NCBI RefSeq assembly: GCF_002201895.1
Contig: NZ_CP019436.1
Coordinates: forward strand, 1,059,867 to 1,091,866
Source: Methanopyrus sp. SNP6
GTDB lineage: Archaea > JAADCQ01 > Methanopyri > Methanopyrales > Methanopyraceae
Direction: 5' to 3'
Length of the DNA stretch: 32,000 nt
This document shows positions 3,648 to 32,000 of this stretch, one piece after another. Every line of letters begins with the position of its first letter. Position 1 is the first letter of the stretch. The notes under the pieces were generated by a model that saw nothing but the letters and a program-made list of their open reading frames with translations, was not told where the DNA came from and ran no database searches. The translations under genes were made by a program, and so were the position numbers.

Positions 3648-3675
3648 CGTCGACCCCCCGACCGTCTCCCGATGA

Positions 3676-3685
3676 CGATTTAAGA
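3676..3685. promoter_or_regulatory. Putative shared TATA element (cgATTTAAGa) between the divergent ASKHA gene and rpl22
   Basis: This is the only AT-rich octamer in the 84-nt divergent spacer. It lies about 50 nt upstream of the rpl22 ATG, with a GGGGGGT SD at 3716-3722 in between, and about 30 nt upstream of TTG 3647 on the other strand. Confidence 0.3.
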
Positions 3686-3731
3686 GCACCCGGGCGCCGG
3701 CGGTGAATCCGGAAACGGGGGGTACTGGATT

Positions 3732-12280: not shown

Positions 12281-12333
12281 CGTTGGTTTGCCCGTTATTC
12301 CGTCTTTCCCTACCGCCTATTAACGTTCCCCGG

Positions 12334-12957: not shown

Positions 12958-13802
12958 CCCTGCCTCCTTGCGATCGCGGTCATCAGGAAGAGGGCCACCG
13001 CCCACACTACGGAGTATGGTGCTAATGGGGATGTTAGGTACCAAACTACACGAATCGTCGCCTGAAGGAGCATCGGTGTCAGGCCGATGAGGACGGCGAT
13101 GACCACGTATCGTCGTATGGGAAGCGGTCTTAACGTCCACACGATGAGCATTCCTAGTCCGATAACCATCGGTTTACACATGAACCCTCCATCTACTGCT
13201 CCGAGCACTACGAGAAATCCTGCCCACGAGAGTAGTAGCGATTCGACCGCACTCCCGCGCTTGAGGAACACAGCCAATGGTGATAGGATGGCTAAAACCA
13301 CGTATGATGCGATTACGACGGCGGTGAAGATTGTGGCGGCCCATGTGGGCATGAACTTAGACAGAACAGACCCATAGTGGTACTTAGTCGGAATCGGACC
13401 TATGATGTAGTTCATGATCTTCCCTACACACGCCTTGAGGGAGTGGGTGTGAACCAGCGAGGAGGTCTCACCGACCGACGATCCTCCGGATACGACGACC
13501 AAAGTACCAGCTTTCAGGCCGTACGGGGTGTTGTATTGTAGTATCATCTGGGCTAGGTAGGGACTAGTAATGATCAGAAGCGTAATACATAGTATCAGTC
13601 TCCTCGAAGCGAGGGTCTCGGTCCATCGACTCGGCATCGAGGGGAATGACCAAAGCAATAGGCACATCAGCCCGAGATGGGCTAGTAGTATAGCAGGTTT
13701 AGCCTCGGTGGATCCCGTTAGAAGTGGGTAGAAGAACTCCCTAAAGATTCCATCGAGAGGCGTATCGGTCAGAATAAGGGTGGCAGAGATCAAGAGTAAC
13801 AC
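12951..13802 (-). CDS. Uncharacterised polytopic membrane protein (paralogue 2, split membrane part)
   Basis: 283 aa and about 8 TM helices. It is alignable along its length with residues ~30-300 of 10913..12280 (FYPLLTGSTEAKPAILLAHLGL; GETSSLVHTHSLKACVGKI; GAVDGGF). Confidence 0.7.
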   Translation of the reverse strand: MLLLISATLILTDTPLDGIFREFFYPLLTGSTEAKPAILLAHLGLMCLLLWSFPSMPSRWTETLASRRLILCITLLIITSPYLAQMILQYNTPYGLKAGTLVVVSGGSSVGETSSLVHTHSLKACVGKIMNYIIGPIPTKYHYGSVLSKFMPTWAATIFTAVVIASYVVLAILSPLAVFLKRGSAVESLLLSWAGFLVVLGAVDGGFMCKPMVIGLGMLIVWTLRPLPIRRYVVIAVLIGLTPMLLQATIRVVWYLTSPLAPYSVVWAVALFLMTAIARRQGW

Positions 13803-13824
13803 GATCGATGCGGCGAAGTAGGGA

Positions 13825-14796
13825 TTACTCGGCTTTGAAGATCTCTTCGACGATCTCCGCGACGGCGCTTCGCCCCCTTCTTATGAGCCACTCTCCGCGC
13901 GGCTTGCTGGCCATTTGGACGGCGTCCTCTGTACCGGAGCTTTCGCTTAAGTACATTACCGGTACGCCGGACTCTTCGGCGATCCAGTGACTCAAGTGCG
14001 TGGGATGCACTTCCGACACCTTCACGGCCTTCTTCGCCACCACACAGGCTTCTATCGTGACCCCGAACCCTCCGGTGAACACTACCGTATCGGCTAGCAT
14101 CATTACTCCGGGTAAATCTACGAATTCCCGAACGCACTCGAAGCCCTCTGGAGGACTTACCCTGAACGGCACCACCACGGGGTCGTGATCCTCGAGATCG
14201 AGGAGCAGTCGTCGAGCTCCTTCCTCCGTGATGTCGCCACCCAAGCATACCAGTACGCGACCTTCGTATTCTTCCGGTACGGGTCCCGGAATACGACCGG
14301 ATAGGTGACGATCCGCCAGGTACTGAGCTAACGGTGCCCCGGAAACCACCTTAGTTTCAACTCCTGCCCGTCGTTCTAGTACTTCCGCCCACCTTTCCGA
14401 GAAGGGCACCAGTACGTGTGTCGCCCATCGGACGGCCTCCACGGGGTTGTACACGTCCATCTCCAAGTGTACTGAAGGGATTCCAAGTATCCGAGACGCT
14501 ATCAGAGACTTCCTAGCGTCCCCGGTGTTACCGGATGAGAGTACCACTGAAGCACGCTCCGACGCCAGAGCCCGTACGGTCCGTATTAAGTCAACGGAGA
14601 ATCCTATATACCCCAGTAATCCTTGCCTCCTTCGGGGCTTTCCCAGCCGCTCCGTCTCGATACCTTCCCATTTTAGTACCTCGACACCACGTCCGTGCCC
14701 GTAGACTGTTACTTCCCACCCTTCCTCTAGGAGTCGCTCCCACACCGGGAGGAGGTTCTTGGCCGGAGACGGTTCTACGAGGCTGAAAACTTTCAT
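13825..14796 (-). CDS. GT-B-fold glycosyltransferase-like protein (MurG/DUF354-like), tentative
   Basis: I use ATG 14796 (MKVFSLVE; GGTGA SD; 4 nt after the hisB stop). There are two Rossmann-like halves: an N-terminal beta-strand plus LLEEGWEVTVYG, and a C-terminal ADTVVFTGGFGVTIEACVVAKKAV reminiscent of the MurG-type donor-binding half. Confidence 0.4.
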   Translation of the reverse strand: MKVFSLVEPSPAKNLLPVWERLLEEGWEVTVYGHGRGVEVLKWEGIETERLGKPRRRQGLLGYIGFSVDLIRTVRALASERASVVLSSGNTGDARKSLIASRILGIPSVHLEMDVYNPVEAVRWATHVLVPFSERWAEVLERRAGVETKVVSGAPLAQYLADRHLSGRIPGPVPEEYEGRVLVCLGGDITEEGARRLLLDLEDHDPVVVPFRVSPPEGFECVREFVDLPGVMMLADTVVFTGGFGVTIEACVVAKKAVKVSEVHPTHLSHWIAEESGVPVMYLSESSGTEDAVQMASKPRGEWLIRRGRSAVAEIVEEIFKAE

Positions 14797-14800
14797 CCGC

Positions 14801-15406
14801 TCACCCGCGTCGGAGTGTTCCTTTAGTTGATGGCACCCCGTCATCGACTACTTCCTTCGCTGCGCCGAGCGCGCGGCCTACAGCCTTAAACATGGCTTCG
14901 ATGGCGTGATGGTCGTTGTCCCACCACCGCACCGCCACGTGCATGGTTACACCGGCGTGATCGCAGAAGCTCTTCCAGAAGTGTGAGACGTTCTCCGTGG
15001 ACAATGGGGGACAACCGATTTTATCGCGTCGAGGTTGATACCCCCTTAGGACGAAGTAGGGCCTCCCGGAGATATCTACGGCACATTCCACCAGCGCTTC
15101 ATCCATGGGCACCAGCGCCCATGCGATTCGTCGGATACCCTCGCGATCTCCGAGTGCTTTGTTCAAAGCTTTACCCAAACATATACCGACGTCCTCGACG
15201 GTATGATGATCGTCGACCTCTAGGTCGCCTCGAGCTTTAATCTCAACATCTATGCGTCCGTGAAAGGCGAACTGGTGCAGGAGGTGGTCGAAAAACGGAA
15301 GACCGGTGTCGACCTTGGCGTGACCGGATCCGTCTAAGTTCACGCTCACCTCAACTTCCGTTTCCTTCGTCGTACGCTTGACATCCGCCGTCCGCACCGA
15401 GTCCAC
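14801..15406 (-). CDS. hisB: Imidazoleglycerol-phosphate dehydratase
   Basis: RTTKETEVEVSVNLDG...DTGLPFFDHLLHQFAFHGRIDVEIKARGDLEVDDHHTVEDVGICLG...VPMDEAL...DISGRPY...HHAIEAMFKAVGRAL. The start is placed at GTG 15406 (201 aa, normal length). The ORF is open to 15502, but that form would overlap the divergent gene. Confidence 0.9.
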   Translation of the reverse strand: MDSVRTADVKRTTKETEVEVSVNLDGSGHAKVDTGLPFFDHLLHQFAFHGRIDVEIKARGDLEVDDHHTVEDVGICLGKALNKALGDREGIRRIAWALVPMDEALVECAVDISGRPYFVLRGYQPRRDKIGCPPLSTENVSHFWKSFCDHAGVTMHVAVRWWDNDHHAIEAMFKAVGRALGAAKEVVDDGVPSTKGTLRRG

Positions 15407-15470: not shown

Positions 15471-15815
15471 ATGGAGAAGACGATCTCCATAGTCTGCATC
15501 ACCCTAGGTGCCGTGCTACTTTGGATGTCTTCCGGTACTTCTCATCAGGTGATCGGGGCTAGAGAGTTGCAGTCGACAGATGACGGAACATTAGTAAGGA
15601 TCAAAGGCGAGGTGATGCAGGTGAAGGCAGTGAGCGGCGGCGCGGAAGTTGTCATTCTAGACGCGGGGGACGGGACGGTGACTGTGTTCCTCAGTAGGGA
15701 GGCCGCAAGTACTTTGGCCCCGAGCCCCGGAGAATCGCTGGAAGTGGTAGGAAGAGTGGAAGAATATCGAGGGCGGAAGGAAGTCCGTGTGGATTCGTCA
15801 GTACGTGCTCGGTAA
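15471..15815 (+). CDS. Membrane-anchored OB-fold protein (tRNA_anti/nucleic-acid-binding-like OB domain)
   Basis: An N-terminal TM (ISIVCITLGAVLLWM) is followed by LVRIKGEVMQVKAVSGGAEVVILDAGDGTVTVFLS...GESLEVVGRVEEYRGRKEVRV, the usual OB pattern of that domain. Confidence 0.55.
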   Translation: MEKTISIVCITLGAVLLWMSSGTSHQVIGARELQSTDDGTLVRIKGEVMQVKAVSGGAEVVILDAGDGTVTVFLSREAASTLAPSPGESLEVVGRVEEYRGRKEVRVDSSVRAR

Positions 15816-16602
15816 GGCTCTCATCGTCGTGATCATCGCGACGCTGACGGTTCCGTATTTCGTGTTCTATGGTAAGCCGCGCGGTCCCGGGTACCCTACG
15901 GAGCTGTACGGGTATCGGATCGTACTGAAAGATCCGGCGCTCGCGGTGGTGGACGTGGAACCCAGACGGACCCTGCTGTTCAGGCACACGCTTACGGTGT
16001 CCGATGAGGGTTGGTCCGTGTATCCTGTTCTCGATATACCTCCACTGATACTCGTGCGCGCGGAGCGCATGGATGCCCTCGAAACGGTTAAGAGGAACCT
16101 GTGGGCGGTTGTACTGCAGGAGGGAGCTGGACGTGTGTTCATGCCCGACGAGTTCGTTGAGGGTGGTGTTCCGGGACTCATCACAGGCATAGCCGGCCAG
16201 GCTTGGGCCTGGAAACATCTGAAATGGGCCAGAGAGTTCGGAGTTATTCACGGGCTACGTCGGTACGCTAAGGAGGTAGGACCCGAGCGCGTTTCTACCG
16301 CTATCTTAAAAGAGTATAGGAAGGCACCGTGGCGGGCGGTCCTAGATTTCTGTTACATGATGAAGAACAGCGAAGTAGGGAGATTCCTACGCTCACGTGG
16401 GCTTTCCTTCAGGGATTTCCTCACCAGTAAAGATCCGAAACTAGTGGCGGAAGTCCTAGTCGTGTTGGACCTGGGGAGGCTTGACAAGCGAGTAGTTAAG
16501 GAAAGAATACGGTACGTGTTGGATGCAAGGGCTTACCCCATCCCTAAGCTGGAAGAAAAGATCATGGATAAGGCGGCGCATGAGCTGCTACATCATGGAT
16601 GA
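15787..16602 (+). CDS. Hypothetical membrane-anchored 271-aa protein
   Basis: It has an N-terminal TM (ALIVVIIATLTVPYFVFY) and coding-like composition, and overlaps the upstream OB-fold gene by 11-29 nt depending on the start (GTG 15787 or 15805). I recognise no family. Confidence 0.5.
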   Translation: MWIRQYVLGKALIVVIIATLTVPYFVFYGKPRGPGYPTELYGYRIVLKDPALAVVDVEPRRTLLFRHTLTVSDEGWSVYPVLDIPPLILVRAERMDALETVKRNLWAVVLQEGAGRVFMPDEFVEGGVPGLITGIAGQAWAWKHLKWAREFGVIHGLRRYAKEVGPERVSTAILKEYRKAPWRAVLDFCYMMKNSEVGRFLRSRGLSFRDFLTSKDPKLVAEVLVVLDLGRLDKRVVKERIRYVLDARAYPIPKLEEKIMDKAAHELLHHG

Positions 16603-19769: not shown

Positions 19770-20486
19770 TTGTATTACATCGGGCTCGGCGGATTCGGCT
19801 GCCGGTTCTCCACTCACGCCTCAAACGCAGGTCTTGAGGTGATCCTCTGCGCGGGATCTAGAGGAGACCTACTGCGTGTATCGGAAGGCGAGAAAATCGA
19901 GGTGGCCAGCGGTATCGGGTTCAGTCGGGACTGGTGTAAGGCTTCCGAGGAGCTGCAAGAGCAAGCGGAGACTATCCGCGAAACGCTGGAAAGGGTGGGT
20001 GCTGAGGAACCCACGGTTCTAGCTTTCGGTCTCGGTGGAGCCGTCGGATACGCTTTAGCGCAGCAGATCCTGAAGGAGCCTCCGGTACCCTTCATCGTAC
20101 TGACCACGGTTCCGGGAGAATCGGAGGACCCTCAGGTGCGTCGCAACGCCGCCGAGCAGGTGAAGAGCGTCCTGGGAGTGTCTATCAAGCTTCCCGTCCT
20201 CTGGGTGGACAACGCGTTAGGTGGGTATGAAAGGGTTAACAGGGTACTCGAGAGAACACTCCTCGACCTCCGAGACTTCCTGGGCGTGCCCGTGGAGGAG
20301 CTCCCGAACTTGGCCGGTAACTACGCGTTGTCACCTTCGATCTCCGGAGAGAGGGTGACCGGGGACGTCGTCAAGACATCGGCGGATGAGGTCAGGAAGC
20401 TGGTGGAGAGTAGAGAGCCAGAGGAACATGTGGTTCGACGCGAGCGCCGTGGGCCCGATCCGGAGTCGCTGAGAGAATTGTTCTAA
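19770..20486 (+). CDS. Divergent FtsZ/tubulin-superfamily protein: GTPase domain only, degenerate GTP-binding loops
   Basis: Collinear with FtsZ N-domain landmarks: IGLGGFGCR (T1), SGIGFSRD (T3), TVLAFGLGGAVGYALAQQI (T4/tubulin signature position), FIVLTTVPGESE (T5), VLWVDNA (T6), then an H7-like helix. It ends after a charged linker with PDPESLRELF. TTG start with a GGGGGGTG SD. Confidence 0.5.
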   Translation: MYYIGLGGFGCRFSTHASNAGLEVILCAGSRGDLLRVSEGEKIEVASGIGFSRDWCKASEELQEQAETIRETLERVGAEEPTVLAFGLGGAVGYALAQQILKEPPVPFIVLTTVPGESEDPQVRRNAAEQVKSVLGVSIKLPVLWVDNALGGYERVNRVLERTLLDLRDFLGVPVEELPNLAGNYALSPSISGERVTGDVVKTSADEVRKLVESREPEEHVVRRERRGPDPESLRELF

Positions 20487-25076: not shown

Positions 25077-25303
25077 AGGTCAGAGTGCGGAAGGCGCCGG
25101 AGGAATTACTTTCGCTGTTACGCAAGTTAGGGCTCTCAATCGCCCGGACCGAGAACGGTTACGAGATTAGTGGTCCTAAATCTCGGCTTCTGGTGGCCCT
25201 TCAACATATACCGCCCAAAATGGCTATCCTGGCCCGTGAGACCGTCGAAGAGTTAAGACAGGTGGTTGGGGTGGAAAAGCCCAGATTATCTCACCGCCGT
25301 TAG
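25073..25303 (+). CDS. Hypothetical small protein (76 aa)
   Basis: GTG 25073 overlaps the CBS stop (GTGA); the track start is 25055. VKVRVRKAPEELLSLLRKLGLSIARTENGYEISG... No family recognised. It overlaps the convergent gene by 4 nt. Confidence 0.4.
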   Translation: MKVRVRKAPEELLSLLRKLGLSIARTENGYEISGPKSRLLVALQHIPPKMAILARETVEELRQVVGVEKPRLSHRR

Positions 25304-26184
25304 AACACTATGTACTTACCACGTAATATATCCCGGTCTACCACGTATATGCGCTGCTTAACGCCTGAATTCGATATCCATAGTGCTAAGGTTAAATGCT
25401 TAGATTTTGCATGTTCTGGCAATACCATCACCATGGCCATTCTATCTCCGAAGTTTATGGTTCGATCGCCAACTTTCTCCTTTCCTGGCCCTAGAAGGGT
25501 TAGTTTTGCGGTCCCTAATCGTGCGATCAGCTGCTCGATTACGAGGCAACCTCTGGCACCCGTGGAGTGTAGGGCACGCTCGATACGTTCTTCTATGAGC
25601 GTGTGTTTGCCGTCACTTACGTTGCACAGTACCTCTCCGACCACTGCGTTGTAACGTACTTTCAGCTTCGGCCCATCCATCAACCGATTACCAAGCTCAC
25701 GACGTATCGCCCGCTTGATGGCGTTAACGTCGGGCTTTCCGTCGTACGATGCCTGGAACACGAACTTGGACCCTTTAATCACGGTGCCCCTGGCGTCCAG
25801 TACCTTGTCTTTCAACCGCTTCTCGATTCGCTTTTTCACATCTTCCGGATCCGCAGTCAACGGGACTAGAGCGTCCACGACGAAGACCGTGTACCCCTTG
25901 ATCTTAACTTTCCTGACGTCTACGTTCTCCACACCACCCGCACAGCTTACGGCGCTCTTCACGTCGGATGTCTTGACACCGGGCTTAGGTACGGCTAGGT
26001 ATCGGACGACCGACACTTGGTAATCCTTCACTATGCTCGCATCGACCGTTCCCTCGGCCGCAGCTACGGCACTCTGTCCTCCCATCATGAAGGAGGGGAT
26101 CGCGGATAGCACCATCATGGCCGCGAGGAATATTATTCCAGCGGTGACGATGGACCTCCTGTGCCTTCGAATCCAGCCGAACAA
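25300..26184 (-). CDS. Membrane-anchored extracytoplasmic protein with repeated beta-alpha-beta-type modules
   Basis: N-terminal anchor (SIVTAGIIFLAAMMVLSAIPSF), then segments such as YQVSVVRYLAVPKPGVKTSDVKSAVSCAGGVENVDVRKVKIKGYTVFVV. These resemble in style the soluble domains at 12334..12957 and the C-terminus of 10913..12280. Confidence 0.55.
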   Translation of the reverse strand: MFGWIRRHRRSIVTAGIIFLAAMMVLSAIPSFMMGGQSAVAAAEGTVDASIVKDYQVSVVRYLAVPKPGVKTSDVKSAVSCAGGVENVDVRKVKIKGYTVFVVDALVPLTADPEDVKKRIEKRLKDKVLDARGTVIKGSKFVFQASYDGKPDVNAIKRAIRRELGNRLMDGPKLKVRYNAVVGEVLCNVSDGKHTLIEERIERALHSTGARGCLVIEQLIARLGTAKLTLLGPGKEKVGDRTINFGDRMAMVMVLPEHAKSKHLTLALWISNSGVKQRIYVVDRDILRGKYIVF

Positions 26185-26187
26185 CGA

Positions 26188-26733
26188 TCACTCCCCCTGG
26201 TCGAGCAGCATCTCCAAGTACGAGTGACGTACTCGCTTGCCCTCGACTTTCAGCTCCTCCAAGATACTTACCAAAAGCTCCTCTTTTTCCTCGACCTCTG
26301 ACTCGTCGTCCGCCTCACACTCCAGCTCGAGAAACGTGCCGAGACCTTTCACATCATCCAGCGCCGCTACAACTTTTTCTCCGTTCACTTCGAGCGTGTA
26401 GACCGTCCTAAGCTTCTTTACTTCCGCGTGCTCTAGCGGCTCGAACCCTAGATGACGAAGGATGGCGTCGGCGGTCTCGAAATCGTCGACTACCACTTCT
26501 AACTCCACCCGTGACTTCTCACGCCCTACCTTCGGTCCCTTGTAAGTTAGTGCGACTTTATCGTCGGAGCGGCGCAGTCGAAGTGCTTCATCCGTCTCTG
26601 CGAAGTCACGGCAAGGATGCTGGTAATACAGGTCCCGCTGCCGGACGGTTCTTACTTTCTCTCCGAGCTCTTCCAGGCGCTTCCGCACGTCCTCGGGGTT
26701 CTTCAGTTTAACCTTAACCTCTACCTCGTACAC
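26188..26733 (-). CDS. CYTH-domain protein (CyaB-type class IV adenylyl cyclase / triphosphate tunnel metalloenzyme)
   Basis: N-terminal ExExK (MYEVEVKVK), ALRLRR, LTYKGPK, SRVELEVVV and FLELE strands of the tunnel fold. Confidence 0.85.
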   Translation of the reverse strand: MYEVEVKVKLKNPEDVRKRLEELGEKVRTVRQRDLYYQHPCRDFAETDEALRLRRSDDKVALTYKGPKVGREKSRVELEVVVDDFETADAILRHLGFEPLEHAEVKKLRTVYTLEVNGEKVVAALDDVKGLGTFLELECEADDESEVEEKEELLVSILEELKVEGKRVRHSYLEMLLDQGE

Positions 26734-26739
26734 ACCGGA

Positions 26740-27918
26740 TCACCTCCTCTTCATCCCGATAACAACTTCGGGTTTCAAGAGCTGATACCCCAGGATCGCT
26801 CCCAAAGCGGCCGGGACGGCGCAGTCGATGCCGAACAGCTCGATGACCAACACAGCGGACGAGATCGGAGCGTTGAACGTCGCAGCCAAGAACGTAGCGA
26901 TGGCCGTCGCGGCCCCGGCTGGAGCGGACGGACCCAGCGTTTGACCTAGAAAGGAGCCCAAAAACGCGCCCACGCACACTGTCGGTGAAACCAATCCCGC
27001 GGGTGTTTCACTACCGACTGTTAGCGCGGTGGTCACCATTTTACCCAGGAACGATAGTAGCGCTTCTTCGGCTCCGATACGGCCTAAGGCGGCCTTCGAG
27101 GCGTAGTCCAATCCCAACCCTACGGCCGTAGGAATAGCGATTCCCACTGACGCTACCCCTAGTCCTGCCAGGAGAGAACGCACGGGTTGACTAGGTACGG
27201 ATTCGACGAACAGTCGACGGGCTTCCTTGATGCACCGGCTGTACACGTAAGCGAGTAACGTCGCCACTACAGAGATCACCAAGAGTTCCGGCAGGTGATG
27301 TGGGCTGTAATGATAAGGGGCGTTCCTCACGAGCAAGTAGCGCTTTCCTAAGGTCGAAACGTACACGGAGTACCCGGCAAGACTGGCTATCGTGCTGGGA
27401 AAAAGTACGACGTAGCGGGACCTTACGCGAATGACTTCGATGGCGAACAGGGCCGCCGCCAGCGGTGCGCACAGGACCCCAGCCACGCCTCCAGAAATTG
27501 TCCCCAGCACGACACATTTTCTCTCCATCTCCGACATTCTTAGCTTCGAAGCCACGTAGCATCCTACGGATACGCACGCTTGGGCACAAGGCCCTACTTG
27601 ACCGCCACTACCTCCCCCGCCGATGACGAGACCCGCAAGTACCAATTTAGCTATTCCTCTGATGGGATTCGCGGGCTCGTTCGGGAATCCCCGGACGACT
27701 ATCTCCATTCCGGTCCCTCTGAGCTCGGGATGTAGTGCTGCTAGGGTGCCGGCCAACAGCATGAACGCCGGGATGACTAACATCTCGCTCCCGACGACCT
27801 TCTCCACCGTGCTTATAATTGAAGAGATGGCGACGGCACACGCTCCGCCGATAACACCCAAAGCCGCGGCCAAAACCGTCCACCGGGCGACGTAAATCAA
27901 CGCCTCCGTCGACAGCAA
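26740..27918 (-). CDS. ClC-family anion channel/transporter homologue, short form without CBS domains
   Basis: About 10-11 TM helices with ClC landmarks: RGTGMEIV (GSGIPE position), GGSGGQVGPCAQ (GREGP position), GSETPAGLVSPTVCVGAFLG (GG.F.P position), FNAPISSAVLVIELFG. TTG start with a GGAGGTGA SD. Confidence 0.75.
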   Translation of the reverse strand: MLSTEALIYVARWTVLAAALGVIGGACAVAISSIISTVEKVVGSEMLVIPAFMLLAGTLAALHPELRGTGMEIVVRGFPNEPANPIRGIAKLVLAGLVIGGGGSGGQVGPCAQACVSVGCYVASKLRMSEMERKCVVLGTISGGVAGVLCAPLAAALFAIEVIRVRSRYVVLFPSTIASLAGYSVYVSTLGKRYLLVRNAPYHYSPHHLPELLVISVVATLLAYVYSRCIKEARRLFVESVPSQPVRSLLAGLGVASVGIAIPTAVGLGLDYASKAALGRIGAEEALLSFLGKMVTTALTVGSETPAGLVSPTVCVGAFLGSFLGQTLGPSAPAGAATAIATFLAATFNAPISSAVLVIELFGIDCAVPAALGAILGYQLLKPEVVIGMKRR

Positions 27919-27959: not shown

Positions 27960-28280
27960 GTGTGGACCCTGACGGTAAGTGCTGAGAGGGAACACGGACC
28001 GTGCGGACGCGTGCGAGAGTTGTACTCGAACGACAAGGTCTCCGTGGCAGAAGTGAGCGTTCAGGGTGAAGGGGAAGAGCATTACCACCGACGCACGTTC
28101 GAGGTGTACTATGTGATCGATGGTCGTGGGAAAGTGGTACTGAACGGTCGTCCCGTCGACGTGGGACCGGGGGACGTCGTCGCCATCGAACCGGGGATAA
28201 GGCATAAGGTGGTCGGCAACCTGAAGATGTTGGTGGTGTGCACCCCCCCGTTCGACCCGGAGGATGTGTACCTGGTATGA
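27960..28280 (+). CDS. Cupin_2-type metal-binding cupin
   Basis: Motif 1 is GEGEEHYHRRTFEVYYVIDG (HxH...E); motif 2 is GPGDVVAIEPGIRHKVVGN. Confidence 0.8.
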   Translation: MWTLTVSAEREHGPCGRVRELYSNDKVSVAEVSVQGEGEEHYHRRTFEVYYVIDGRGKVVLNGRPVDVGPGDVVAIEPGIRHKVVGNLKMLVVCTPPFDPEDVYLV

Positions 28281-28303
28281 TGAGCTAAGCCTACGCCGAC
28301 CTA

Positions 28304-28624
28304 GTGGGGAGTGAGGATACGGGTGAGCTGCCTGACCCATCTCTCGTGTTTATCGAACTTAGGTTAAGGGTTCCCGAGGAGGTACTATCGTCCCTGGATC
28401 CGGATTCCGATGAGTACTGCGACAGAAGTGAGGATGTCGTCGAAATTCTCGCCGAGGGGTTTGGAGCGGCGAAATGCGCCGTCGAGGACGTTCTGCGATG
28501 CGTAAAAGCTGGTACCGATACGCTCGAAATCGTCAGGGGGAGCGAGAGTGCAACCACTGACGAGGAGGAACAAGAACGAGCATCCCGCGGTTCTCGACCC
28601 GGATCGCACGATTGTCTTAGGTGA
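28304..28624 (+). CDS. Acidic small protein, possible ribbon-helix-helix regulator
   Basis: LVFIELRLRVPEEVLSSLD...DRSEDVVEILAEGF fits the strand/helix/helix pattern with the RSE..v..a motif of RHH proteins. Antisense ORFs here are Ser/Thr-rich shadows. The start (GTG 28304 or 28346) is uncertain. Confidence 0.4.
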   Translation: MGSEDTGELPDPSLVFIELRLRVPEEVLSSLDPDSDEYCDRSEDVVEILAEGFGAAKCAVEDVLRCVKAGTDTLEIVRGSESATTDEEEQERASRGSRPGSHDCLR

Positions 28625-29264
28625 CGTGACAGTGTCCCGAGAAGCGGTGATAGGACCGGAGGTTAGACTGGGACCGGACGCCGTCGTACGAGGTGCTGTG
28701 ATATCTGGACGTTGTGTCATCTACAATTGTGAGCTCGGACGTTGCGCCGTAGGTCCCAGGACCACGGTTACGGGCGATGTTGGGGATGGAGTCACAATTC
28801 ACTCGGGCACGATTCTAGGGCAGCTCCGTGTGAGCGGGGAGATCGAGCCACCCGAAGTGGGTGAGGGAGCCTTCCTGGGGCCCGGGGTTTCCGTTCTTCC
28901 GGGGACGGTCATAGGTCCAGAGTCCATCGTGATGCCCGACAGTGTGGTGACCGAGCGTGTGCCGCGTCGCGGGGTCGTCAGCGGAAATCCGGCGATGCCC
29001 ACGGGAATGGTCGTCGACGCGGAGACGTTGATTCTGGAGTTCGATGGAAAGCGGCTGTTACTTGAGGGAAAACGGGGAACCGCCTTTGACGTCAAGTTGA
29101 GCGACGGCGAACTCAAAATCACCGAAGGGAGCCCCGATAACTTCGGAGCCGTGCTTGAGAAGGACGTGGTGAAGGTGGTCCGCATGGGGCACGTGATACC
29201 CTTACCCGCTAGTCGACCTTTTTCCATCCCGTTGCACGTACTGGAGGTACGAACGAAGGGGTAA
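28548..29264 (+). CDS. Left-handed beta-helix (hexapeptide-repeat) acyltransferase-like protein with extra C-terminal domain
   Basis: Hexapeptide turns IGPEVRLGPDAVVRGAVISGRCVIYNCELGRCAVGPRTTVTG...GEGAFLGPGVSVLPGTVIGPESIVMPDSVV...VVSGNPA, followed by ~75 unrelated residues. The start is uncertain; the track GTG 28548 overlaps the upstream ORF by 77 nt. Confidence 0.65.
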   Translation: MQPLTRRNKNEHPAVLDPDRTIVLGDVTVSREAVIGPEVRLGPDAVVRGAVISGRCVIYNCELGRCAVGPRTTVTGDVGDGVTIHSGTILGQLRVSGEIEPPEVGEGAFLGPGVSVLPGTVIGPESIVMPDSVVTERVPRRGVVSGNPAMPTGMVVDAETLILEFDGKRLLLEGKRGTAFDVKLSDGELKITEGSPDNFGAVLEKDVVKVVRMGHVIPLPASRPFSIPLHVLEVRTKG

Positions 29265-29271
29265 GCGGACG

Positions 29272-29874
29272 GTGCCGGTCCGCGAGTCACTGCTAATAGA
29301 TACCGATGTGCGCCGCTCGCTAGTTCTCGGGTCCGTGTTGGAGAAGTGCGAGGTGGAAAGAGCAGCCGTGCTGGGTACTGTCGCCCGGGATAAGCGGTTC
29401 GAACACGGTGTTTTCGTGGCCGGGAAGCGGGTGCCAGGCGAGGTAATCACAGTAGAGGTGGAAGTTTCAAGGGAAATCGTACGCTCGGGATCTGTGGAAG
29501 TCGACCTCGATCCCACGGACCAGGATCTGGTGGCGGTGGTTGCGGACGTAGGAGCAACCGGGCTCATCTCGGATCTCACCGGATTACAACCTGAGCGCCG
29601 TGGGTTCCACGCCCTGTTCGCTTTCTCGGGTGAGTTACCAGCCCGAGTACGGAAGAGAGTGGTAATCAACCTGGACGTGTTCAGAGAATGTTGTCCGTGT
29701 GCCCTATTGGAGATCGGTGACGTGAAGCTGAGGTTTTTGGGAGGTCGACAGGTGTTCGATGAAAGGTCCAGACTGTCGTATACGGACGTCCTTGCCGTCA
29801 GGGACGGTAAGCCGATAGCATCTGCATGGAAGTCGGCGTCCAGAAGCGTCATCTCCAAGCTGGGGACCAGGTGA
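29272..29874 (+). CDS. Hypothetical 200-aa protein
   Basis: Coding-like, whereas the antisense 316-aa ORF is Ser/Thr/Arg-rich shadow. It sits 7 nt after the LbH gene and 6 nt before the CitG-like gene. The N-terminus has a few hexapeptide-like turns (SLVLGSVLEKCEVERAAVLGTV). No family recognised. Confidence 0.5.
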   Translation: MPVRESLLIDTDVRRSLVLGSVLEKCEVERAAVLGTVARDKRFEHGVFVAGKRVPGEVITVEVEVSREIVRSGSVEVDLDPTDQDLVAVVADVGATGLISDLTGLQPERRGFHALFAFSGELPARVRKRVVINLDVFRECCPCALLEIGDVKLRFLGGRQVFDERSRLSYTDVLAVRDGKPIASAWKSASRSVISKLGTR

Positions 29875-29880
29875 GGGACC

Positions 29881-30738
29881 GTGGTGAGGACAGTCAGAGA
29901 GCTTCCGATGCTGTTTTGCGAGTCGGTCGCACTGGAGGTACTCTCCGGGCCGAAACCGGGATTAGTGGACCCCGTCTCTCCTAGCTCCCACGAGGATATG
30001 GGGCCCCGTGAGTTCCTCGCGTGCCTTCCTGAGCTTCGGAGGTGTCTAGAGGAGGCTCTAAAGCTGGGGATAGATGGTGAACCAGTAGACGAGTTAATCC
30101 GGTCCCTTCCCGCGTGGAACGTGGACGTGATAACAGCTTCTGGCGGACCCAACTCCGTGCGCGGGATAGTGTTCTTAGGGTCGGTGTACTGCTACTCGGC
30201 TGGGTTCGAAAACGACCCGTTCCCGTTCGGTCGCATCCGCGTCGTCGGAAGGAGGTGCACGGAGGCTCTCTGGAACCGGTCGGAAACCAAGTGCGGCCGA
30301 ATCCGGATCAAGGAACGGTTGGCCGGTATCTTCGGCGAGGTATCTTCCGGAATGGCTACGGCTCGAGGGGTATCCTTACCGGTCCTACGGGCCACGCTGC
30401 GGGCGGGAAGGCCCCTAGAAGAAGCCGTAATACACTCGGTGTTGGCCTGCATGTCAACGTTAGAAGACGCCGGGATTCCCCGGAAACTGCGCGACTGGGT
30501 GAAACAAAGGGCCTCGGAAGTTCTACGCGCCGGAGGTCCGTCCACCGAACGGGGTCGTGCGGAGCTGCACAAATTCGTGTACGAGTGCGCTGAACGTGGG
30601 GTGAGTCCCGGTGCCTCGGCCGACGTTACGGTCGTCGGGCTCGTCCTTCTATTCGCGAGGTGGGGTAGGGACATCGTATCCCCGTATCGTGATCCTTCAC
30701 GGAGGTGGAGTGGCGGAGCTGTTGGACGGGACTCTTAG
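29881..30738 (+). CDS. CitG/MdcB-family protein (triphosphoribosyl-dephospho-CoA synthase homologue)
   Basis: ALEVLSGPKPGLVD, SSHEDM, GGPNSVRGIVFLG, GIFGEVSSG and C-terminal SPGASADVTVVGLVL correspond to the family motifs (PKPGLVD, H.DM, G.NT..G, GaRGE, SPGGsADLLA). Confidence 0.78.
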   Translation: MVRTVRELPMLFCESVALEVLSGPKPGLVDPVSPSSHEDMGPREFLACLPELRRCLEEALKLGIDGEPVDELIRSLPAWNVDVITASGGPNSVRGIVFLGSVYCYSAGFENDPFPFGRIRVVGRRCTEALWNRSETKCGRIRIKERLAGIFGEVSSGMATARGVSLPVLRATLRAGRPLEEAVIHSVLACMSTLEDAGIPRKLRDWVKQRASEVLRAGGPSTERGRAELHKFVYECAERGVSPGASADVTVVGLVLLFARWGRDIVSPYRDPSRRWSGGAVGRDS

Positions 30739-31246
30739 GCTTCTAATACGGTCGGATGGAACCCGGGCGGTCGCGTCCGAGGGAGACGAGAAGTTCTTAA
30801 AGACTGACGAAGCCGAGGTCAGCAGGGAGTTAACACCCTTCGAAGCTTACCGGGAGATATGCAAGAAACTGGACGCGTCCGTTGTCGAGCTACCCGAAGA
30901 CGTAGGACATCCTGTCGACCCTGAGGTGGGATATCGGGTCCTGGAACTTCTGGAGAGCCTGTGGGACTCGGGGTTCAGGCGCTTGGGTGTTTTGGGAACC
31001 GTCGGGTGCGGTGCGCCCCTCCACGATATCGAGGTCGGGAACCCGGTTGGGTGGACCAGCGTTCGGGTTTCGAACCCAGGTTCAGATCTCGACCTTGTGG
31101 TCCCCCACCGAGATTACTTACTAGAGATGTCATCGTCTGGTTTCGAAACTGTAAAGCGTTTCTCCGACCGAGTGATAATGTCTCCCGTGGCGTTCACCGG
31201 GTTCACAACTCCCAGAGTCGAAGTCCGGTTACCCAGGGGGTGTTAA
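30689..31246 (+). CDS. Pol-beta-superfamily nucleotidyltransferase-like protein, MdcG-like (tentative)
   Basis: RLGVLGTVGCGAPLHD...NPGSDLDLVVPH resembles the G-x-x-G-[ST]...[ST]D[LI]D[LV] minimal nucleotidyltransferase signature, also used by phosphoribosyl-dephospho-CoA transferase MdcG. The ORF is open from 30611. I favour GTG 30689, which overlaps the CitG-like gene by 50 nt. Confidence 0.45.
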   Translation: MILHGGGVAELLDGTLRLLIRSDGTRAVASEGDEKFLKTDEAEVSRELTPFEAYREICKKLDASVVELPEDVGHPVDPEVGYRVLELLESLWDSGFRRLGVLGTVGCGAPLHDIEVGNPVGWTSVRVSNPGSDLDLVVPHRDYLLEMSSSGFETVKRFSDRVIMSPVAFTGFTTPRVEVRLPRGC

Positions 31247-31247
31247 C

Positions 31248-32000
31248 TTGACGGAAAAACTTGACAGCATGTTGCCCAAAACCGCACAAGGTTCGAACTT
31301 GAGCGATCTGAAGAACCTCCGCGATGCGTTGGATAAGTTTTCCGAGATCGAGCCGGATCTGGACGTCGAGTCACTGAAAGCTACGCTGGACGATCTGATT
31401 ACGCTCATGGAAGAAACAGGCGTGAAAGACGTTAGGGATCTCTGCGAAAAGTTTCTGGACTTCAAGCGCGAAAAGGAGCGGCTAGAAGAGCTCCTGAAGG
31501 AGTACTTCAAGCGATTGGAGGAGTTAGAGCGGAAGCTGCGAGCTCACGAGGAGAAGCTCCGCATCGAAGCCCGTCGTCGTAAGACCCTGGAGAAGGAGTT
31601 GGAGATGGAACGTGATGAAAAGGCCGAGCTGCGTGAGGAGCTACGGCGTAAAGAGGTTATGATCGAAAAGCTCCGTAGTGACCTGCAGCGAATGAAGAAG
31701 CCACCGCTCATCGTGGGTACCGTCGAAGAGATCCTCGACGACGGTCGCGTGATAGTGAAGAGTTCCACGGGTCCGAAGTTCGTCTCGAACGTGAGCCCTA
31801 CCGTGGACAGAAACGAGCTCGAACCTGGTGCAAACGTGGCCCTCAACCAGCAGAGCATGGCTGTGGTGGATGTGCTACCGTCGGAGAAGGACTCACGTGT
31901 ACTGGCGATGGAGGTGGACGAGTCACCCGACGTGTCGTACGACGATATCGGTGGTCTGGACGAGCAGATCCGCGAAATCCGGGAGGTCGTGGAGAAGCCG
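31248..32000 (+). CDS. pan: Proteasome-activating nucleotidase PAN (Rpt-like AAA+ ATPase); partial, continues past the right edge
   Basis: Not in the track (no stop in the window). My translation from TTG 31248 (GGGGGTG SD 5 nt upstream) is open for 251 codons. It shows a coiled coil (LEELERKLRAHEEKLRIEARRRKTLEKELE...), then PPLIVGTVEEILDDGRVIVKSSTGPKFVSNV...ALNQQSMAVVDVLP...VSYDDIGGLDEQIREIREVVEKP. Alternative starts are ATG 31269 or 31407. Confidence 0.9.
   Translation, partial: MTEKLDSMLPKTAQGSNLSDLKNLRDALDKFSEIEPDLDVESLKATLDDLITLMEETGVKDVRDLCEKFLDFKREKERLEELLKEYFKRLEELERKLRAHEEKLRIEARRRKTLEKELEMERDEKAELREELRRKEVMIEKLRSDLQRMKKPPLIVGTVEEILDDGRVIVKSSTGPKFVSNVSPTVDRNELEPGANVALNQQSMAVVDVLPSEKDSRVLAMEVDESPDVSYDDIGGLDEQIREIREVVEKP

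What the first reader, a model, noticed from the sequence alone, without database searches (positions are those of the whole stretch)
28304..31246. CitG-like + MdcG-like nucleotidyltransferase pair in an operon with RHH, LbH and orphan genes, without any known acceptor enzyme
Seen in sequence:
- Five co-directional genes are packed with 6-7 nt gaps or overlaps. They are possibly preceded by the cupin at 27960 (23-nt gap) and followed 1 nt later by pan.
- ORF 29881..30738 carries the CitG/MdcB motifs PKPGLVD, H-E-DM and SPGASAD.
- The next ORF carries a GVLGTVG...GSDLDLVV minimal-nucleotidyltransferase signature.

Established knowledge: in bacteria, CitG/MdcB makes 2'-(5''-triphosphoribosyl)-3'-dephospho-CoA. 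A transferase (CitX, or the Pol-beta-fold MdcG) then attaches it to a serine of the acyl-carrier subunit of citrate lyase or malonate decarboxylase.

Inference: no lyase, decarboxylase or recognisable ACP subunit is encoded here. The partners are instead a hexapeptide-repeat acyltransferase-like protein with an unexplained ~75-aa C-terminal domain, a 200-aa orphan and a small RHH-like protein. This could be a prosthetic-group synthesis and attachment module with a new acceptor. Alternatively, the CitG homologue may use its ATP-ribosyl-transfer chemistry in methanogen cofactor biosynthesis, since CitG-like genes co-occur with H4MPT-linked C1 genes.
Basis: partly seen in the sequence, partly recalled or inferred. 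Interest (0 to 1): 0.8.

Follow-up and report, generated by a model that had tools for sequence, protein, structure and literature searches.

The report
CoA-arm synthesis genes lacking known target
A Methanopyrus operon encodes a clear CitG-type enzyme and a probable, very diverged MdcG-type partner (the pair that in bacteria builds and attaches a CoA-like swinging arm to a carrier protein), but it encodes none of the known carrier proteins or enzymes that use that arm, so its target is unknown.

Summary
Window 27960-31246 carries six tightly packed co-directional genes: cupin, small acidic orphan, hexapeptide-repeat (LbH) acyltransferase, 200-aa orphan, CitG/MdcB-family protein (PF01874, 127 bits) and a 178-211-aa orphan, followed 1 nt later by pan.

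The last orphan (F; MK0877 in M. kandleri AV19) has no Pfam hit. An exhaustive HMMER search of 1.84 billion proteins found it only in Methanopyri. A profile-profile comparison with 15 annotated MdcG proteins gives probability 61-71% (P 4e-5 to 8e-5). It aligns the G-[ST], S-D-x-D and third-Asp catalytic positions, all invariant in F. The five neighbouring families score P>=0.17, and CitX scores P=0.42.

No neighbour resembles the MdcC/CitD carriers. No lyase or decarboxylase subunit lies in the 32 kb. The cluster is conserved in five Methanopyri lineages down to 50% identity. In contrast, 69 of the 79 closest non-Methanopyri CitG loci in metagenomes carry a recognisable carrier and/or transferase within 5 kb.

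Best reading (about 0.4): a diverged system that makes and attaches the phosphoribosyl-dephospho-CoA group to an unrecognised acceptor. Main rival: a small-molecule acceptor, such as in methanopterin biosynthesis. The "RHH" label for the small protein is not supported.

The parts
27960..28280 (+). Gene A: 106-aa single-domain cupin. It is the first gene of the conserved cluster.
   Evidence: PF07883 Cupin_2, E 3e-15. No equivalog-level NCBIfam hit. Orthologues lie at the same position in L001, L004, L006, L007 and L008.
28304..28624 (+). Gene B: small acidic orphan with a conserved core of about 75 aa. Its 3' tail overlaps the start of C. It is not an RHH protein and may have a Pcc1-like fold.
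   Evidence: No Pfam hit in any of 6 orthologues. Invariant P33, D34, D36, C39, G52, G54, K57 and DVLRC. Weak match to PDB 8up5_P, KEOPS Pcc1 (E 0.32). The 'PDSD' serine is Ala in L006 and L007.
28548..29264 (+). Gene C: hexapeptide-repeat (LbH) acyltransferase, residues 1-150. It has an invariant N-terminal PLTRRNKxxHPAVxDPD segment and a lineage-specific C-terminal domain of about 85 aa.
   Evidence: PF00132, E 1e-12. Sub-threshold similarity to LpxD, NeuD and other acetyltransferases. Best solved relatives are WxcM-like 4mzu, DapH 3r8y and maltose, Vat and serine acetyltransferases, E 7e-11 to 1e-7. Alignment.
29272..29874 (+). Gene D: 200-aa orphan found only in Methanopyri. It has an invariant NLD-x-x-RECCPCA motif (nt 29668-29703). 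Ser71/72-Gly73 (nt 29482-29490) sits at the tip of a predicted beta-hairpin. D is a candidate acceptor or partner.
   Evidence: Only 9 clusters found, all Methanopyri. AF2 pLDDT 75.7, pTM 0.74, with the core at pLDDT 85-93. No Foldseek match in PDB (best E 0.27). Motif conservation. Weak ACP-motif alignment.
29881..30738 (+). Gene E: CitG/MdcB-family ATP:dephospho-CoA triphosphoribosyl transferase homologue (285 aa). It is the orthologue of the gene annotated 'Triphosphoribosyl-dephospho-CoA synthetase' in M. kandleri AV19 (AAM02089.1).
   Evidence: PF01874, 127 bits. MdcB TIGR03132 scores 95 bits against a cutoff of 282. Alignment with 12 bacterial MdcB/CitG. Cluster names.
30611..31246 (+). 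Gene F: probable diverged MdcG-like nucleotidyltransferase (MK0877 in AV19). The start could be 30611, 30689 or 30710, and the gene overlaps the 3' end of E.
   Evidence: hhalign against 15 MdcG proteins gives Prob 61-71%, P 4e-5 to 8e-5. My own MdcG HMM hits the same motif in 5 of 6 orthologues. Reciprocal small-database ranks. Only Methanopyri homologues among 1.84e9 representatives.
30986..31102 (+). Catalytic core of F: GVLGTVG (the G-[ST] motif), a 12-aa lineage-specific insertion, then WTSVRVSNPGSDLDLVV (the S-D-x-D strand).
   Evidence: Aligned to the MdcG consensus wGvxGSxGF...aTGl...SDLDLli. Invariant residues listed.
31166..31168 (+). Asp186 of F, the putative third metal-binding carboxylate.
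   Evidence: Invariant in F. Aligned with the invariant MdcG Asp183.
31248..32000 (+). pan (proteasome-activating nucleotidase), 5' part. It is the downstream neighbour, 1 nt after F. It is probably co-transcribed, but no functional link is shown.
   Evidence: Translation. Pfam domains of the orthologue in L001 and L004. In L001 it overlaps F by 58 nt.

Best explanation

**Step 1 (family membership shown; substrate inferred).** The CitG/MdcB-family protein E condenses ATP with dephospho-CoA, or a close analogue. Adenine is released and a 5''-triphosphoribosyl adduct forms.

**Step 2 (inferred from weak but specific homology).** The overlapping downstream gene F encodes an MdcG-like Pol-beta-type nucleotidyltransferase. 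It uses Asp159, Asp161 and Asp186 to transfer the phosphoribosyl-dephospho-CoA moiety to a hydroxyl group, releasing pyrophosphate.

**Step 3 (speculative).** The acceptor is not an MdcC/CitD-type carrier. It is most plausibly one of the co-transcribed Methanopyri-specific proteins.
- The best lead is D, with Ser71/72-Gly73 at the tip of a confidently predicted beta-hairpin.
- B is the second candidate.

**Step 4 (speculative).** The LbH acyltransferase C, and perhaps the cupin A, use or load the thiol arm.
For: **E is a CitG-family protein.**
- PF01874, 127 bits, full length.
- It keeps E19, PKPGLV, D39, G89, N91, G95, G149, D196 and D248, which are invariant across bacterial MdcB/CitG.

**F resembles MdcG specifically.**
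- hhalign Prob 71%, P 3.7e-5, over F 48-170. The tool's own comparison gives Prob 61%, P 7.9e-5.
- The alignment pairs F's invariant G129, S158, D159, D161 and D186 with MdcG's invariant G134, S151, D152, D154 and D183.
- Control families A-E against MdcG score P>=0.17. F against CitX scores P 0.42.
- F orthologues rank 1, 3, 9, 10 and 13 of 704 ORFs for an MdcG HMM. MdcG ORFs rank 1 and 2 of 1204 for an F HMM.
- One orthologue hits PF10620 at E 0.22, one of only four Pfam families listed.
- The top Foldseek hits of the low-confidence F model include many DNA polymerase beta and mu chains, E 0.06-0.3.

**The genes form a tight, conserved unit.**
- E and F overlap, and all six genes are packed with overlaps or gaps of at most 23 nt. 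In L001 every junction from A to pan overlaps.
- The cluster is conserved in five Methanopyri lineages down to 42-52% identity.

**The closest relatives of E are canonical bacterial genes.**
- They are CitX-CitG fusions and MdcB in standard operons.
- 69 of 79 metagenomic relatives have a carrier and/or transferase within 5 kb. A transferase next to CitG is therefore the rule for this clade.
Against: **F is not established as an MdcG.**
- It reaches no curated threshold.
- The hhalign probability is only moderate.
- The AF2 model is unreliable (pLDDT 46).

**No acceptor is recognisable.**
- A-F against a 17-sequence MdcC/CitD profile score P>=0.09.
- D's model does not match any PDB chain, including MdcC.
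- D's candidate Ser72 is Ala in one lineage, with Ser at 71 instead.

**E departs from residues that are near-universal in bacterial MdcB/CitG.**
- The His of NTH[RK]G becomes Val.
- The Arg of GARGEA becomes Phe or Leu.
- DDTN becomes EDAG.
- The 'RGG' stretch is absent.
These changes fit an altered substrate.

**Other limits.**
- Equivalog cutoffs for MdcB and CitG are missed by a wide margin.
- Neighbourhood conservation is whole-region synteny within one order.
- Only 32 kb was examined, so an acceptor elsewhere in the genome is not excluded.
Confidence: 0.4

Rival explanations
1. **Small-molecule acceptor in cofactor biosynthesis.** E uses CitG chemistry to place an alpha-linked 5-triphosphoribosyl group on a hydroxyl of a metabolite. 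One candidate is the ribitol of the tetrahydromethanopterin side chain. F then forms the phosphodiester to a second hydroxyl (for example 2-hydroxyglutarate) with release of PPi. No carrier protein is involved.
For: - CitG-like genes sit in H4MPT-linked C1 islands of methylotrophs. The island mch-orf5-orf7 is described in PMC3615186. In Methylomonas DH-1 the three consecutive genes are annotated mch, alpha-L-glutamate ligase and 'triphosphoribosyl-dephospho-CoA synthase' (PMC11533326).
- A methanogen without citrate lyase also carries one (Methanobacterium formicicum, PMC7386643).
- No carrier is detectable here.
- E has lost several residues that are otherwise near-invariant in MdcB/CitG, as expected if the acceptor substrate differs.
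- From my own knowledge, not tested here: H4MPT contains an alpha-5-phosphoribosyl unit joined by a phosphodiester to hydroxyglutarate, and the enzymes for these steps are unassigned.
Against: - The nearest relatives of E found by two searches are bacterial CitXG and MdcB of canonical systems, not H4MPT-island genes. Both searches were biased by shared words or the PKPGLVD pattern.
- To my knowledge, H4MPT islands contain no MdcG-like gene.
- The co-transcribed LbH acyltransferase, cupin, B and D have no obvious role in methanopterin synthesis.
- F, B and D are confined to Methanopyri, whereas H4MPT synthesis is shared by all methanogens.
Confidence: 0.25
2. **Heterogeneous cluster.** E is a CitG-family enzyme whose partner or acceptor lies elsewhere, or it is a relic of a transferred bacterial gene. 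F is an unrelated fast-evolving orphan whose SDLDL motif is coincidental. Gene packing reflects the compact, syntenic Methanopyrus genome rather than shared function.
For: - F has no significant hit in Pfam, NCBIfam, PDB sequences or 1.84e9 representatives outside Methanopyri.
- A spurious antisense ORF scores as high as F against the 7-sequence MdcG HMM (8.6 against 8.7 bits).
- Flanking, functionally unrelated genes (ATP-cone, CBS, CYTH, CLC, PAN, GT2) are equally syntenic.
- pan is packed as tightly as the other genes.
- The window is rich in orphan ORFs in general.
Against: - The F-MdcG signal strengthens when the MdcG profile is diversified, from P 4e-4 to 4e-5. This is the behaviour expected of true homology.
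- The signal extends over both MdcG domains.
- It places five invariant F residues on five invariant MdcG residues.
- It is absent for five control families.
- E and F overlap in all lineages.
Confidence: 0.2
3. **Sugar-nucleotide or metabolite acetylation module.** Cupin A and LbH acyltransferase C work as an isomerase/acetyltransferase pair of the FdtA/FdtC type. The CitG-like gene is merely adjacent.
For: - The best solved relative of C is 4mzu (WxcM-like), E 7e-11. From my recollection it is a bifunctional LbH-cupin enzyme.
- Other hits are sugar N- and O-acetyltransferases (QdtC, PglD-like, perosamine N-acetyltransferase).
Against: - The matches are generic LbH similarity, confined largely to the last coils and the CoA-binding tail.
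- A hits Cupin_2 and not the FdtA family.
- No aminotransferase, dehydratase or nucleotidyltransferase for sugar activation lies in the cluster.
- This reading does not explain E, F, D or B.
Confidence: 0.07

Closest known systems
Malonate decarboxylase prosthetic-group genes mdcB and mdcG, acting on the acyl carrier MdcC (Klebsiella, Pseudomonas, Acinetobacter)
   Same: - A PF01874 gene sits directly beside a gene with the MdcG catalytic pattern (G-[ST]...S-D-x-D...D).
- The two genes overlap, as mdcG and mdcB do in the bacterial loci L010-L013, L017 and L019.
- E scores best against the MdcB model among the equivalog families (95 bits).
   Different: - No mdcA, mdcC, mdcD, mdcE or mdcH is present.
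- Gene order is reversed: here the CitG-like gene comes before the MdcG-like gene.
- F is below every curated threshold and carries a 12-aa insertion in the catalytic loop.
- E lacks the conserved His, Arg and RGG positions.
- The partners are LbH, cupin and two orphans.
- The host is an archaeal hyperthermophilic methanogen.
Citrate lyase activation genes citX and citG, acting on the carrier CitD (E. coli, Klebsiella)
   Same: The CitG-family enzyme, and the logic of precursor synthesis followed by transfer to a carrier.
   Different: - F is unrelated to CitX (hhalign P 0.42).
- No citC, citD, citE or citF is present.
- E scores only 78 bits on TIGR03125 (cutoff 272) and 52 bits on PRK10096 (cutoff 477).
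CitG-like 'orf7' of H4MPT-linked C1-transfer gene islands in methylotrophs, and CitG homologues of other methanogens
   Same: A CitG-family gene in an organism that uses H4MPT and has no recognisable citrate lyase or malonate decarboxylase context.
   Different: - Those islands pair orf7 with mch, an ATP-grasp ligase and fae. They do not pair it with an MdcG-like gene, LbH or cupin.
- I could not retrieve an orf7 sequence, so orthology is untested.
Minimal Pol-beta-superfamily nucleotidyltransferases (MNT-type)
   Same: The G-[ST]-x(n)-[DE]-x-[DE] motif plus a third carboxylate about 25 residues downstream. DNA polymerase beta and mu are among the top fold hits of the low-confidence model.
   Different: - No match to any Pfam NTase family.
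- F has an N-terminal domain that aligns with MdcG_N, which MNTs lack.
- No HEPN partner is present.

Membership tests
CitG/MdcB (PF01874, ATP:dephospho-CoA triphosphoribosyl transferase) - gene E | Full-length match to the family profile above the Pfam gathering score | tested here: met
   127 bits against a cutoff of 27. Residues 11-256 cover profile positions 3-283 of 284.
CitG/MdcB (PF01874) - gene E | Equivalog-level match to MdcB (TIGR03132), CitG (TIGR03125, NF007503) or NF002315 | tested here: not met
   Scores are 95, 78, 52 and 75 bits against cutoffs of 282, 272, 477 and 280. E is a distinct, divergent subfamily.
CitG/MdcB (PF01874) - gene E | Conserved sequence motifs of bacterial enzymes: E..PKPGLV, H.DM, G.NTH[RK]G, GARGEA..G[FY], DDTN..RGG, SPGG.AD | tested here: inconclusive
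   - E..PKPGLV, H.DM, G.N..RG and SPG..AD are kept.
- The His becomes Val, the Arg becomes Phe or Leu, DDTN becomes EDAG, and the RGG stretch is deleted.
CitG/MdcB (PF01874) - gene E | Catalysis of adenine release and formation of 2'-(5''-triphosphoribosyl)-3'-dephospho-CoA | not testable with these tools
   Needs an enzyme assay.
MdcG (PF10620 plus PF20866, phosphoribosyl-dephospho-CoA transferase) - gene F | Match to the curated family profile | tested here: not met
   No Pfam or NCBIfam hit for the window copy. One of 7 orthologues hits PF10620 at E 0.22.
MdcG - gene F | Profile-profile similarity to bona fide MdcG, specific relative to controls | tested here: inconclusive
   - Prob 61-71%, P 4e-5 to 8e-5, 53-126 aligned columns.
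- Controls score P>=0.17.
- This is suggestive but below the level usually taken as proof.
MdcG - gene F | Catalytic G-S...S-D-x-D plus a downstream Asp, conserved in all members | tested here: met
   F's G129/T130, S158, D159, D161 and D186 are invariant. They align with MdcG's invariant G134, S151, D152, D154 and D183.
MdcG - gene F | Encoded beside the CitG/MdcB gene | tested here: met
   F overlaps the 3' end of E. The same holds in L001 and L004.
MdcG - gene F | Pol-beta-type nucleotidyltransferase fold | tested here: inconclusive
   - AF2 pLDDT is 45.9.
- Foldseek top hits include DNA polymerase beta and mu, but at E 0.06-0.3 and TM about 0.22.
CitX (PF03802) - gene F | Profile similarity to CitX | tested here: not met
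   hhalign P 0.42 against 18 CitX sequences or CitX domains.
MdcC/CitD acyl carrier (PF06857) - any of A, B, C, D, F | Profile similarity to the carrier, with a Ser in a [GAE]-S-[GS]-[DN] loop | tested here: not met
   - hhalign P>=0.09 against 17 MdcC/CitD sequences. No Pfam hit.
- D's 'RSGSVEV' aligns with 'vgSgdlev' only in the window copy.
Hexapeptide-repeat (LbH) acyltransferases (PF00132) - gene C | Hexapeptide repeats and a C-terminal CoA-binding tail motif (G-N-P-A) | tested here: met
   PF00132 E 1e-12 with 4 stretches. GNPAMP is invariant. Solved acetyltransferases match at E 7e-11 to 1e-7.
Ribbon-helix-helix regulators - gene B | Match to any RHH family profile | tested here: not met
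   No Pfam family at E<=10 in 6 orthologues. No RHH chain among the PDB hits.
Pcc1/CTAG (KEOPS subunit) - gene B | Profile match to Pcc1 | tested here: inconclusive
   Only 8up5_P at E 0.32 over 38 residues. No Pfam Pcc1 hit.

The most novel reading that the evidence does not exclude
The operon encodes a complete acyl-carrier enzyme system that has not been described before and is restricted to Methanopyri. In this reading, the orphan D (or B) is a new class of carrier protein bearing the phosphoribosyl-dephospho-CoA arm. The arm is installed by E and the MdcG-like F. The LbH acyltransferase C and the cupin A are the enzymes that load and use the tethered thiol. This would be the first instance of this prosthetic group in Archaea and the first outside citrate lyase, citramalate lyase and malonate decarboxylase.
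Probability: 0.2. Interest if true: 0.8.

Novelty: new variant of a known kind. Interest (0 to 1): 0.6.

Why it matters
- To my knowledge, the 2'-(5''-phosphoribosyl)-3'-dephospho-CoA arm is known only from a few bacterial enzymes: citrate lyase, citramalate lyase and malonate decarboxylase. Archaea are generally regarded as lacking acyl-carrier-protein systems.
- A CitG/MdcG-type pair without any known acceptor, conserved in a hyperthermophilic methanogen lineage, implies one of two things. Either there is a new carrier and enzyme, or the same two-step chemistry (alpha-ribosyl transfer from ATP, then phosphodiester formation with loss of PPi) has been reused on a metabolite.
- The second option would bear on unassigned steps of methanopterin side-chain assembly, and on the unexplained CitG-like 'orf7' of H4MPT gene islands.
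- Both readings can be tested directly with four small recombinant proteins and mass spectrometry.
- The work also gives a tentative annotation to MK0877, currently listed as 'uncharacterized'.

Tried and rejected
**Searches that found nothing or little.**
1. Pfam, NCBIfam and PADLOC scans of A-F. These give only Cupin_2, Hexapep and CitG, with nothing for B, D or F and no defence-system hit.
2. PDB sequence search with the F profile. It returns only artefactual summed hits to concatenated RecA chains.
3. Exhaustive HMMER search of 1.84e9 representatives with the F profile. It finds 3 proteins, all Methanopyri.
4. Rfam and tRNA scans of the window. No hits.
5. A sigma-70 promoter and terminator scan. 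It is uninformative for an archaeon.

**Structure attempts.**
- AF2 of F with a 5-sequence alignment gave pLDDT 46. Its Foldseek hits (DNA polymerase beta and mu) are not significant.
- AF2 of D gave a good core (pLDDT 75.7), but Foldseek found no PDB match.

**Ideas tested and dropped.**
- B as an ACP-like acceptor through its 'PDSD' serine. Rejected: the Ser is Ala in L006 and L007, and hhalign against the ACP profile gives P 0.05-0.09.
- C's C-terminal domain as acceptor. It has no invariant Ser or Thr and no similarity to the ACP profile (P 0.24).
- F as a CitX homologue. Rejected (P 0.42).
- Internal homology among A, B, C-terminal domain of C, D and F. None found (P>=0.02).

**Searches limited by method.**
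- The genome-collection scan with the CitG alignment used patterns so specific that it returned only Methanopyri MAGs.
- The metagenome scan with a broader PKPGLVD pattern returned, after Methanopyri, only bacterial relatives at 20-29% identity. It returned no H4MPT-island type, so the comparison with orf7 could not be made.
- Literature searches for CitG in archaea, methanopterin or COG1767 found nothing direct. The Kalyuzhnaya 2005 paper is not held in the library.

Full report
**What is in the sequence.**
On the + strand, window 27960-31246 holds six ORFs:
- A, 27960-28280
- B, 28304-28624
- C, 28548-29264
- D, 29272-29874
- E, 29881-30738
- F, 30611-31246

The spacing is A-B gap 23 nt, B-C overlap 77 nt, C-D gap 7 nt and D-E gap 6 nt. 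The E-F overlap is 29-128 nt, depending on which in-frame GTG (30611, 30689 or 30710) starts F. The proteasome-activating nucleotidase gene starts at TTG 31248, 1 nt after the F stop.

The organism is a Methanopyrus. F is 91% identical to an M. kandleri hypothetical protein. In strain AV19 the counterparts are AAM02088.1 (D), AAM02089.1, annotated 'Triphosphoribosyl-dephospho-CoA synthetase' (E), and MK0877/AAM02090.1, 'uncharacterized' (F).

**Family assignments.**
- A is a single-domain cupin (PF07883, E 3e-15).
- C is a hexapeptide-repeat acyltransferase (PF00132, E 1e-12).
- E matches Pfam CitG over its whole length at 127 bits.
- B, D and F have no Pfam hit.

NCBIfam places E closest to MdcB: 95 bits, against 78 for the CitG domain model and 75 for NF002315. 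All are far below the equivalog cutoffs of 272-477 bits, so E is a divergent subfamily.

Aligned with 12 bacterial MdcB/CitG proteins, E keeps E..PKPGLV, H.DM, G.N..RG and SPG..AD. It differs at several positions:
- Val replaces the His of NTH[RK]G.
- Phe or Leu replaces the Arg of GARGEA.
- EDAG replaces DDTN.
- The four-residue 'RGG' stretch is missing.

C's best solved relatives are generic acetyl-CoA-dependent LbH enzymes: WxcM-like 4mzu, DapH, and maltose, Vat and serine acetyltransferases, at E 7e-11 to 1e-7. Its last 85 residues or so are a lineage-specific domain.

**Is F an MdcG-like nucleotidyltransferase?**
Sequence searches alone say F is an orphan.
- A word-indexed search of 5.8 billion proteins found 4 clusters.
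- An exhaustive HMMER profile search of 1.84 billion representatives found 3 proteins.
- All of these are Methanopyri.
- A profile search of PDB sequences gave only artefacts.
- AlphaFold2 with the shallow alignment gave pLDDT 46.

I therefore tested the specific hypothesis directly. I collected annotated mdc and cit operons from plasmid records. From them I built MdcG, MdcC/CitD and CitX profiles.

With 7 MdcG sequences:
- An MdcG HMM hits the same segment (T-S-h-R-V-x-N-P-G-S-D-L-D-L) in five of six F orthologues, with per-sequence P of 8e-5 to 9e-3.
- hhalign gives P 4e-4.

With 15 phylogenetically broader MdcG sequences (Proteobacteria, Firmicutes, Actinobacteria), the signal strengthens.
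- Prob 71%, P 3.7e-5.
- Prob 61%, P 7.9e-5 with the tool's own comparison.

The alignment pairs F 'GVLGTVGCGA' with MdcG 'wGvxGSxGFxL'. It then opens a 12-residue insertion in F and pairs 'WTSVRVSNPGSDLDLVV' with 'aTGlxxlxxxSDLDLli'. At lower stringency it also aligns F Asp186 with the invariant MdcG Asp183, and the N-terminal half of F with the MdcG N-domain.

The MdcG-invariant residues G134, S151, D152, D154 and D183 correspond to F residues G129, S158, D159, D161 and D186. All five are invariant in F.

Controls:
- The five neighbouring families score P>=0.17 against MdcG.
- F scores P 0.42 against CitX.
- In small reciprocal databases, F orthologues rank 1, 3, 9, 10 and 13 of 704 six-frame ORFs for the MdcG HMM. 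MdcG ORFs rank 1 and 2 of 1204 for the F HMM. A spurious ORF scores as high as the best F.

Further weak signals:
- One orthologue shows PF10620 (MdcG) at E 0.22, one of only four Pfam families listed for the seven orthologues.
- The low-confidence model's Foldseek list includes many DNA polymerase beta and mu chains at E 0.06-0.3.

My judgement is that F is probably (about 0.7) a Pol-beta-type NTase and a very diverged MdcG relative. It does not meet any curated membership threshold.

**Is there an acceptor?**
None is recognisable.
- Against a 17-sequence MdcC/CitD profile, the best scores are P about 0.09, for B and D (earlier).
- Among the larger ORFs of the window that I scanned, the recognisable ones are housekeeping genes: MetRS, TFB, ArgJ, HisB, ribosomal proteins L22 and S3, a CofE-like protein, an ASKHA-fold protein, a CyaB/CYTH protein and a CLC channel. 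Many others are orphans. I recognised no citrate lyase or malonate decarboxylase subunit.

B:
- It is not an RHH protein (no Pfam hit in six orthologues).
- Its only faint resemblance is to KEOPS Pcc1 (E 0.32).
- Its 'PDSD' serine is Ala in two lineages.

C: the C-terminal domain has no invariant Ser or Thr.

D:
- It is confined to Methanopyri.
- It models well: pLDDT 75.7, pTM 0.74, with the core at 85-93.
- Foldseek finds nothing similar in the PDB (best E 0.27). The other fold libraries were unavailable.
- It has an invariant NLD-x-x-RECCPCA motif.
- A Ser at position 71 or 72, followed by invariant Gly73, sits at the tip of a confidently predicted hairpin.
- In MdcC, the modified Ser25 also sits at the tip of a beta2-beta3 loop in a [GA]-S-G-[DN] context (PMC5534430).
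- The ACP HMM aligns 'vvgSgdlev' with D 'IVRSGSVEV', but only in the window copy (P about 1e-3). This is a lead and not evidence.

**Conservation and comparison.**
The A-F-pan cluster is present in five further Methanopyri lineages, with 42-70% identity per protein. In the most distant ones, every junction overlaps. The flanks (ATP-cone, CBS, CYTH and CLC upstream; GT2, Pyr_redox and MgtE downstream) are equally syntenic. The conservation therefore shows retention but not an independent functional link.

Outside Methanopyri, the closest relatives of E are bacterial.
- CitX-CitG fusions and MdcB, at 25-32% identity.
- Two that I inspected lie in complete mdc operons.
- In a metagenome scan, identity drops from 68% (Methanopyri) straight to 20-29%.
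- 69 of the 79 non-Methanopyri loci carry a recognisable carrier and/or CitX or MdcG within 5 kb. Only the Methanopyri contig carries A, B, C, D and F.
- The four long loci with none of these are bacterial citrate or malonate contexts.

Both searches were biased by shared words or by the PKPGLVD pattern. They cannot show that H4MPT-island CitG homologues are more distant.

**Mechanism.**
Shown: E belongs to the CitG family.

Inferred from weak but specific homology: F is MdcG-like.

From established knowledge of the bacterial systems (Dimroth and colleagues; summarised in PMC5534430):
- CitG/MdcB makes 2'-(5''-triphosphoribosyl)-3'-dephospho-CoA from ATP and dephospho-CoA.
- MdcG or CitX transfers it to a carrier serine with loss of PPi.

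I commit, at about 0.4, to the reading that E and F do the same two steps here on an unrecognised acceptor. D is the best operon-encoded candidate. The LbH acyltransferase is the likely user or loader of the thiol.

The main rival (about 0.25) is that the same chemistry acts on a metabolite.
- CitG-like 'orf7' genes sit in H4MPT islands. The island mch-orf5-orf7 is in PMC3615186. The annotation 'triphosphoribosyl-dephospho-CoA synthase' next to mch and an alpha-L-glutamate ligase is in PMC11533326.
- A Methanobacterium also carries one (PMC7386643).
- From my own knowledge, H4MPT contains an alpha-5-phosphoribosyl phosphodiester whose enzymes are unassigned.
- E's loss of otherwise conserved residues fits a changed substrate.

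A third possibility (about 0.2) is that F's resemblance is coincidental and the cluster is functionally heterogeneous.

**Verdict.**
- The pair is probably real and the missing acceptor is real.
- Nothing yet shows a new acceptor.
- The RHH label is wrong.

I class this as a new variant of a known kind. It is moderately to highly interesting because either surviving reading is new biology that can be tested with a few recombinant proteins.

Noticed in passing
window 30611-30738 (E/F overlap); L001 6752-6870; L004 6761-6915: - Both reading frames are conserved across lineages over the same roughly 24 nt: CitG frame 'SPYRDP', F frame 'PRIVIL'.
- Downstream of this, the CitG frame degenerates into a Gly/Arg-rich, length-variable tail. 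The window copy is 285 aa, and other Methanopyrus copies are 284-314 aa.
- The F frame stays conserved, so the CitG tail looks like a by-product of the overlap. The true start of F is unresolved.
   Followed up: partly
window 28548-28624 (B/C overlap): B's acidic C-terminal tail is encoded out of frame over C's invariant N-terminal segment PLTRRNKxxHPAVxDPD. In the 50%-identity lineages B ends earlier. The tail is probably not functional, while C's unusual conserved N-terminus probably is.
   Followed up: partly
window 28304-28555 (B): The profile of B aligns weakly (E 0.32, 38 residues) with the strand-helix segment of KEOPS subunit Pcc1 (PDB 8up5_P). B could be a Pcc1-fold dimerisation module or even a KEOPS-related paralogue.
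   Followed up: partly
window 29668-29703 (D residues 133-144): The NLD-x-x-RECCPCA motif, with three cysteines, is conserved in all 10 D homologues. It lies at a helix-to-strand junction of the confident core. This may be a metal or redox site. No known family carries it.
   Followed up: no
window 26188-26733 (-) and 26740-27918 (-): Divergently oriented neighbours are a CyaB-type class IV adenylate cyclase/CYTH protein (TIGR00318, 147 bits) and a CLC-type channel. Both are syntenic with the cluster in all Methanopyri loci. The intergenic region to gene A is only 41 nt.
   Followed up: no
window 10913-14844 (-), 15691-16251 (-), 19770-20486 (+), 25300-26184 (-): A run of sizeable ORFs (186-455 aa) has no Pfam or NCBIfam hit at E<=1e-3. 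This illustrates how orphan-rich this genome is, which tempers the weight of 'orphan' status for B, D and F.
   Followed up: no
window 1242-2108 (+) and 2634-3755 (-): - One ORF is a protein of the F420-0:gamma-glutamyl ligase family (PF01996, 65 bits), far below the CofE equivalog cutoffs.
- The other is an ASKHA-fold protein that weakly matches AnmK.
- Both may be cofactor-biosynthesis paralogues. I did not examine them further.
   Followed up: no
L098 (Ga0256842_1007922, 788-1474): A second, distant CitG-family gene (29% identity) occurs on a short contig from the same metagenome as the Methanopyri contig L004/L035. Its organism and context were not examined.
   Followed up: no
L001 7327-7384; window 31246-31248: pan is packed as tightly as the cluster genes: 1-nt gap here and 58-nt overlap in L001. 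It is probably on the same transcript. Whether this is functional or just genome compaction is unknown.
   Followed up: no
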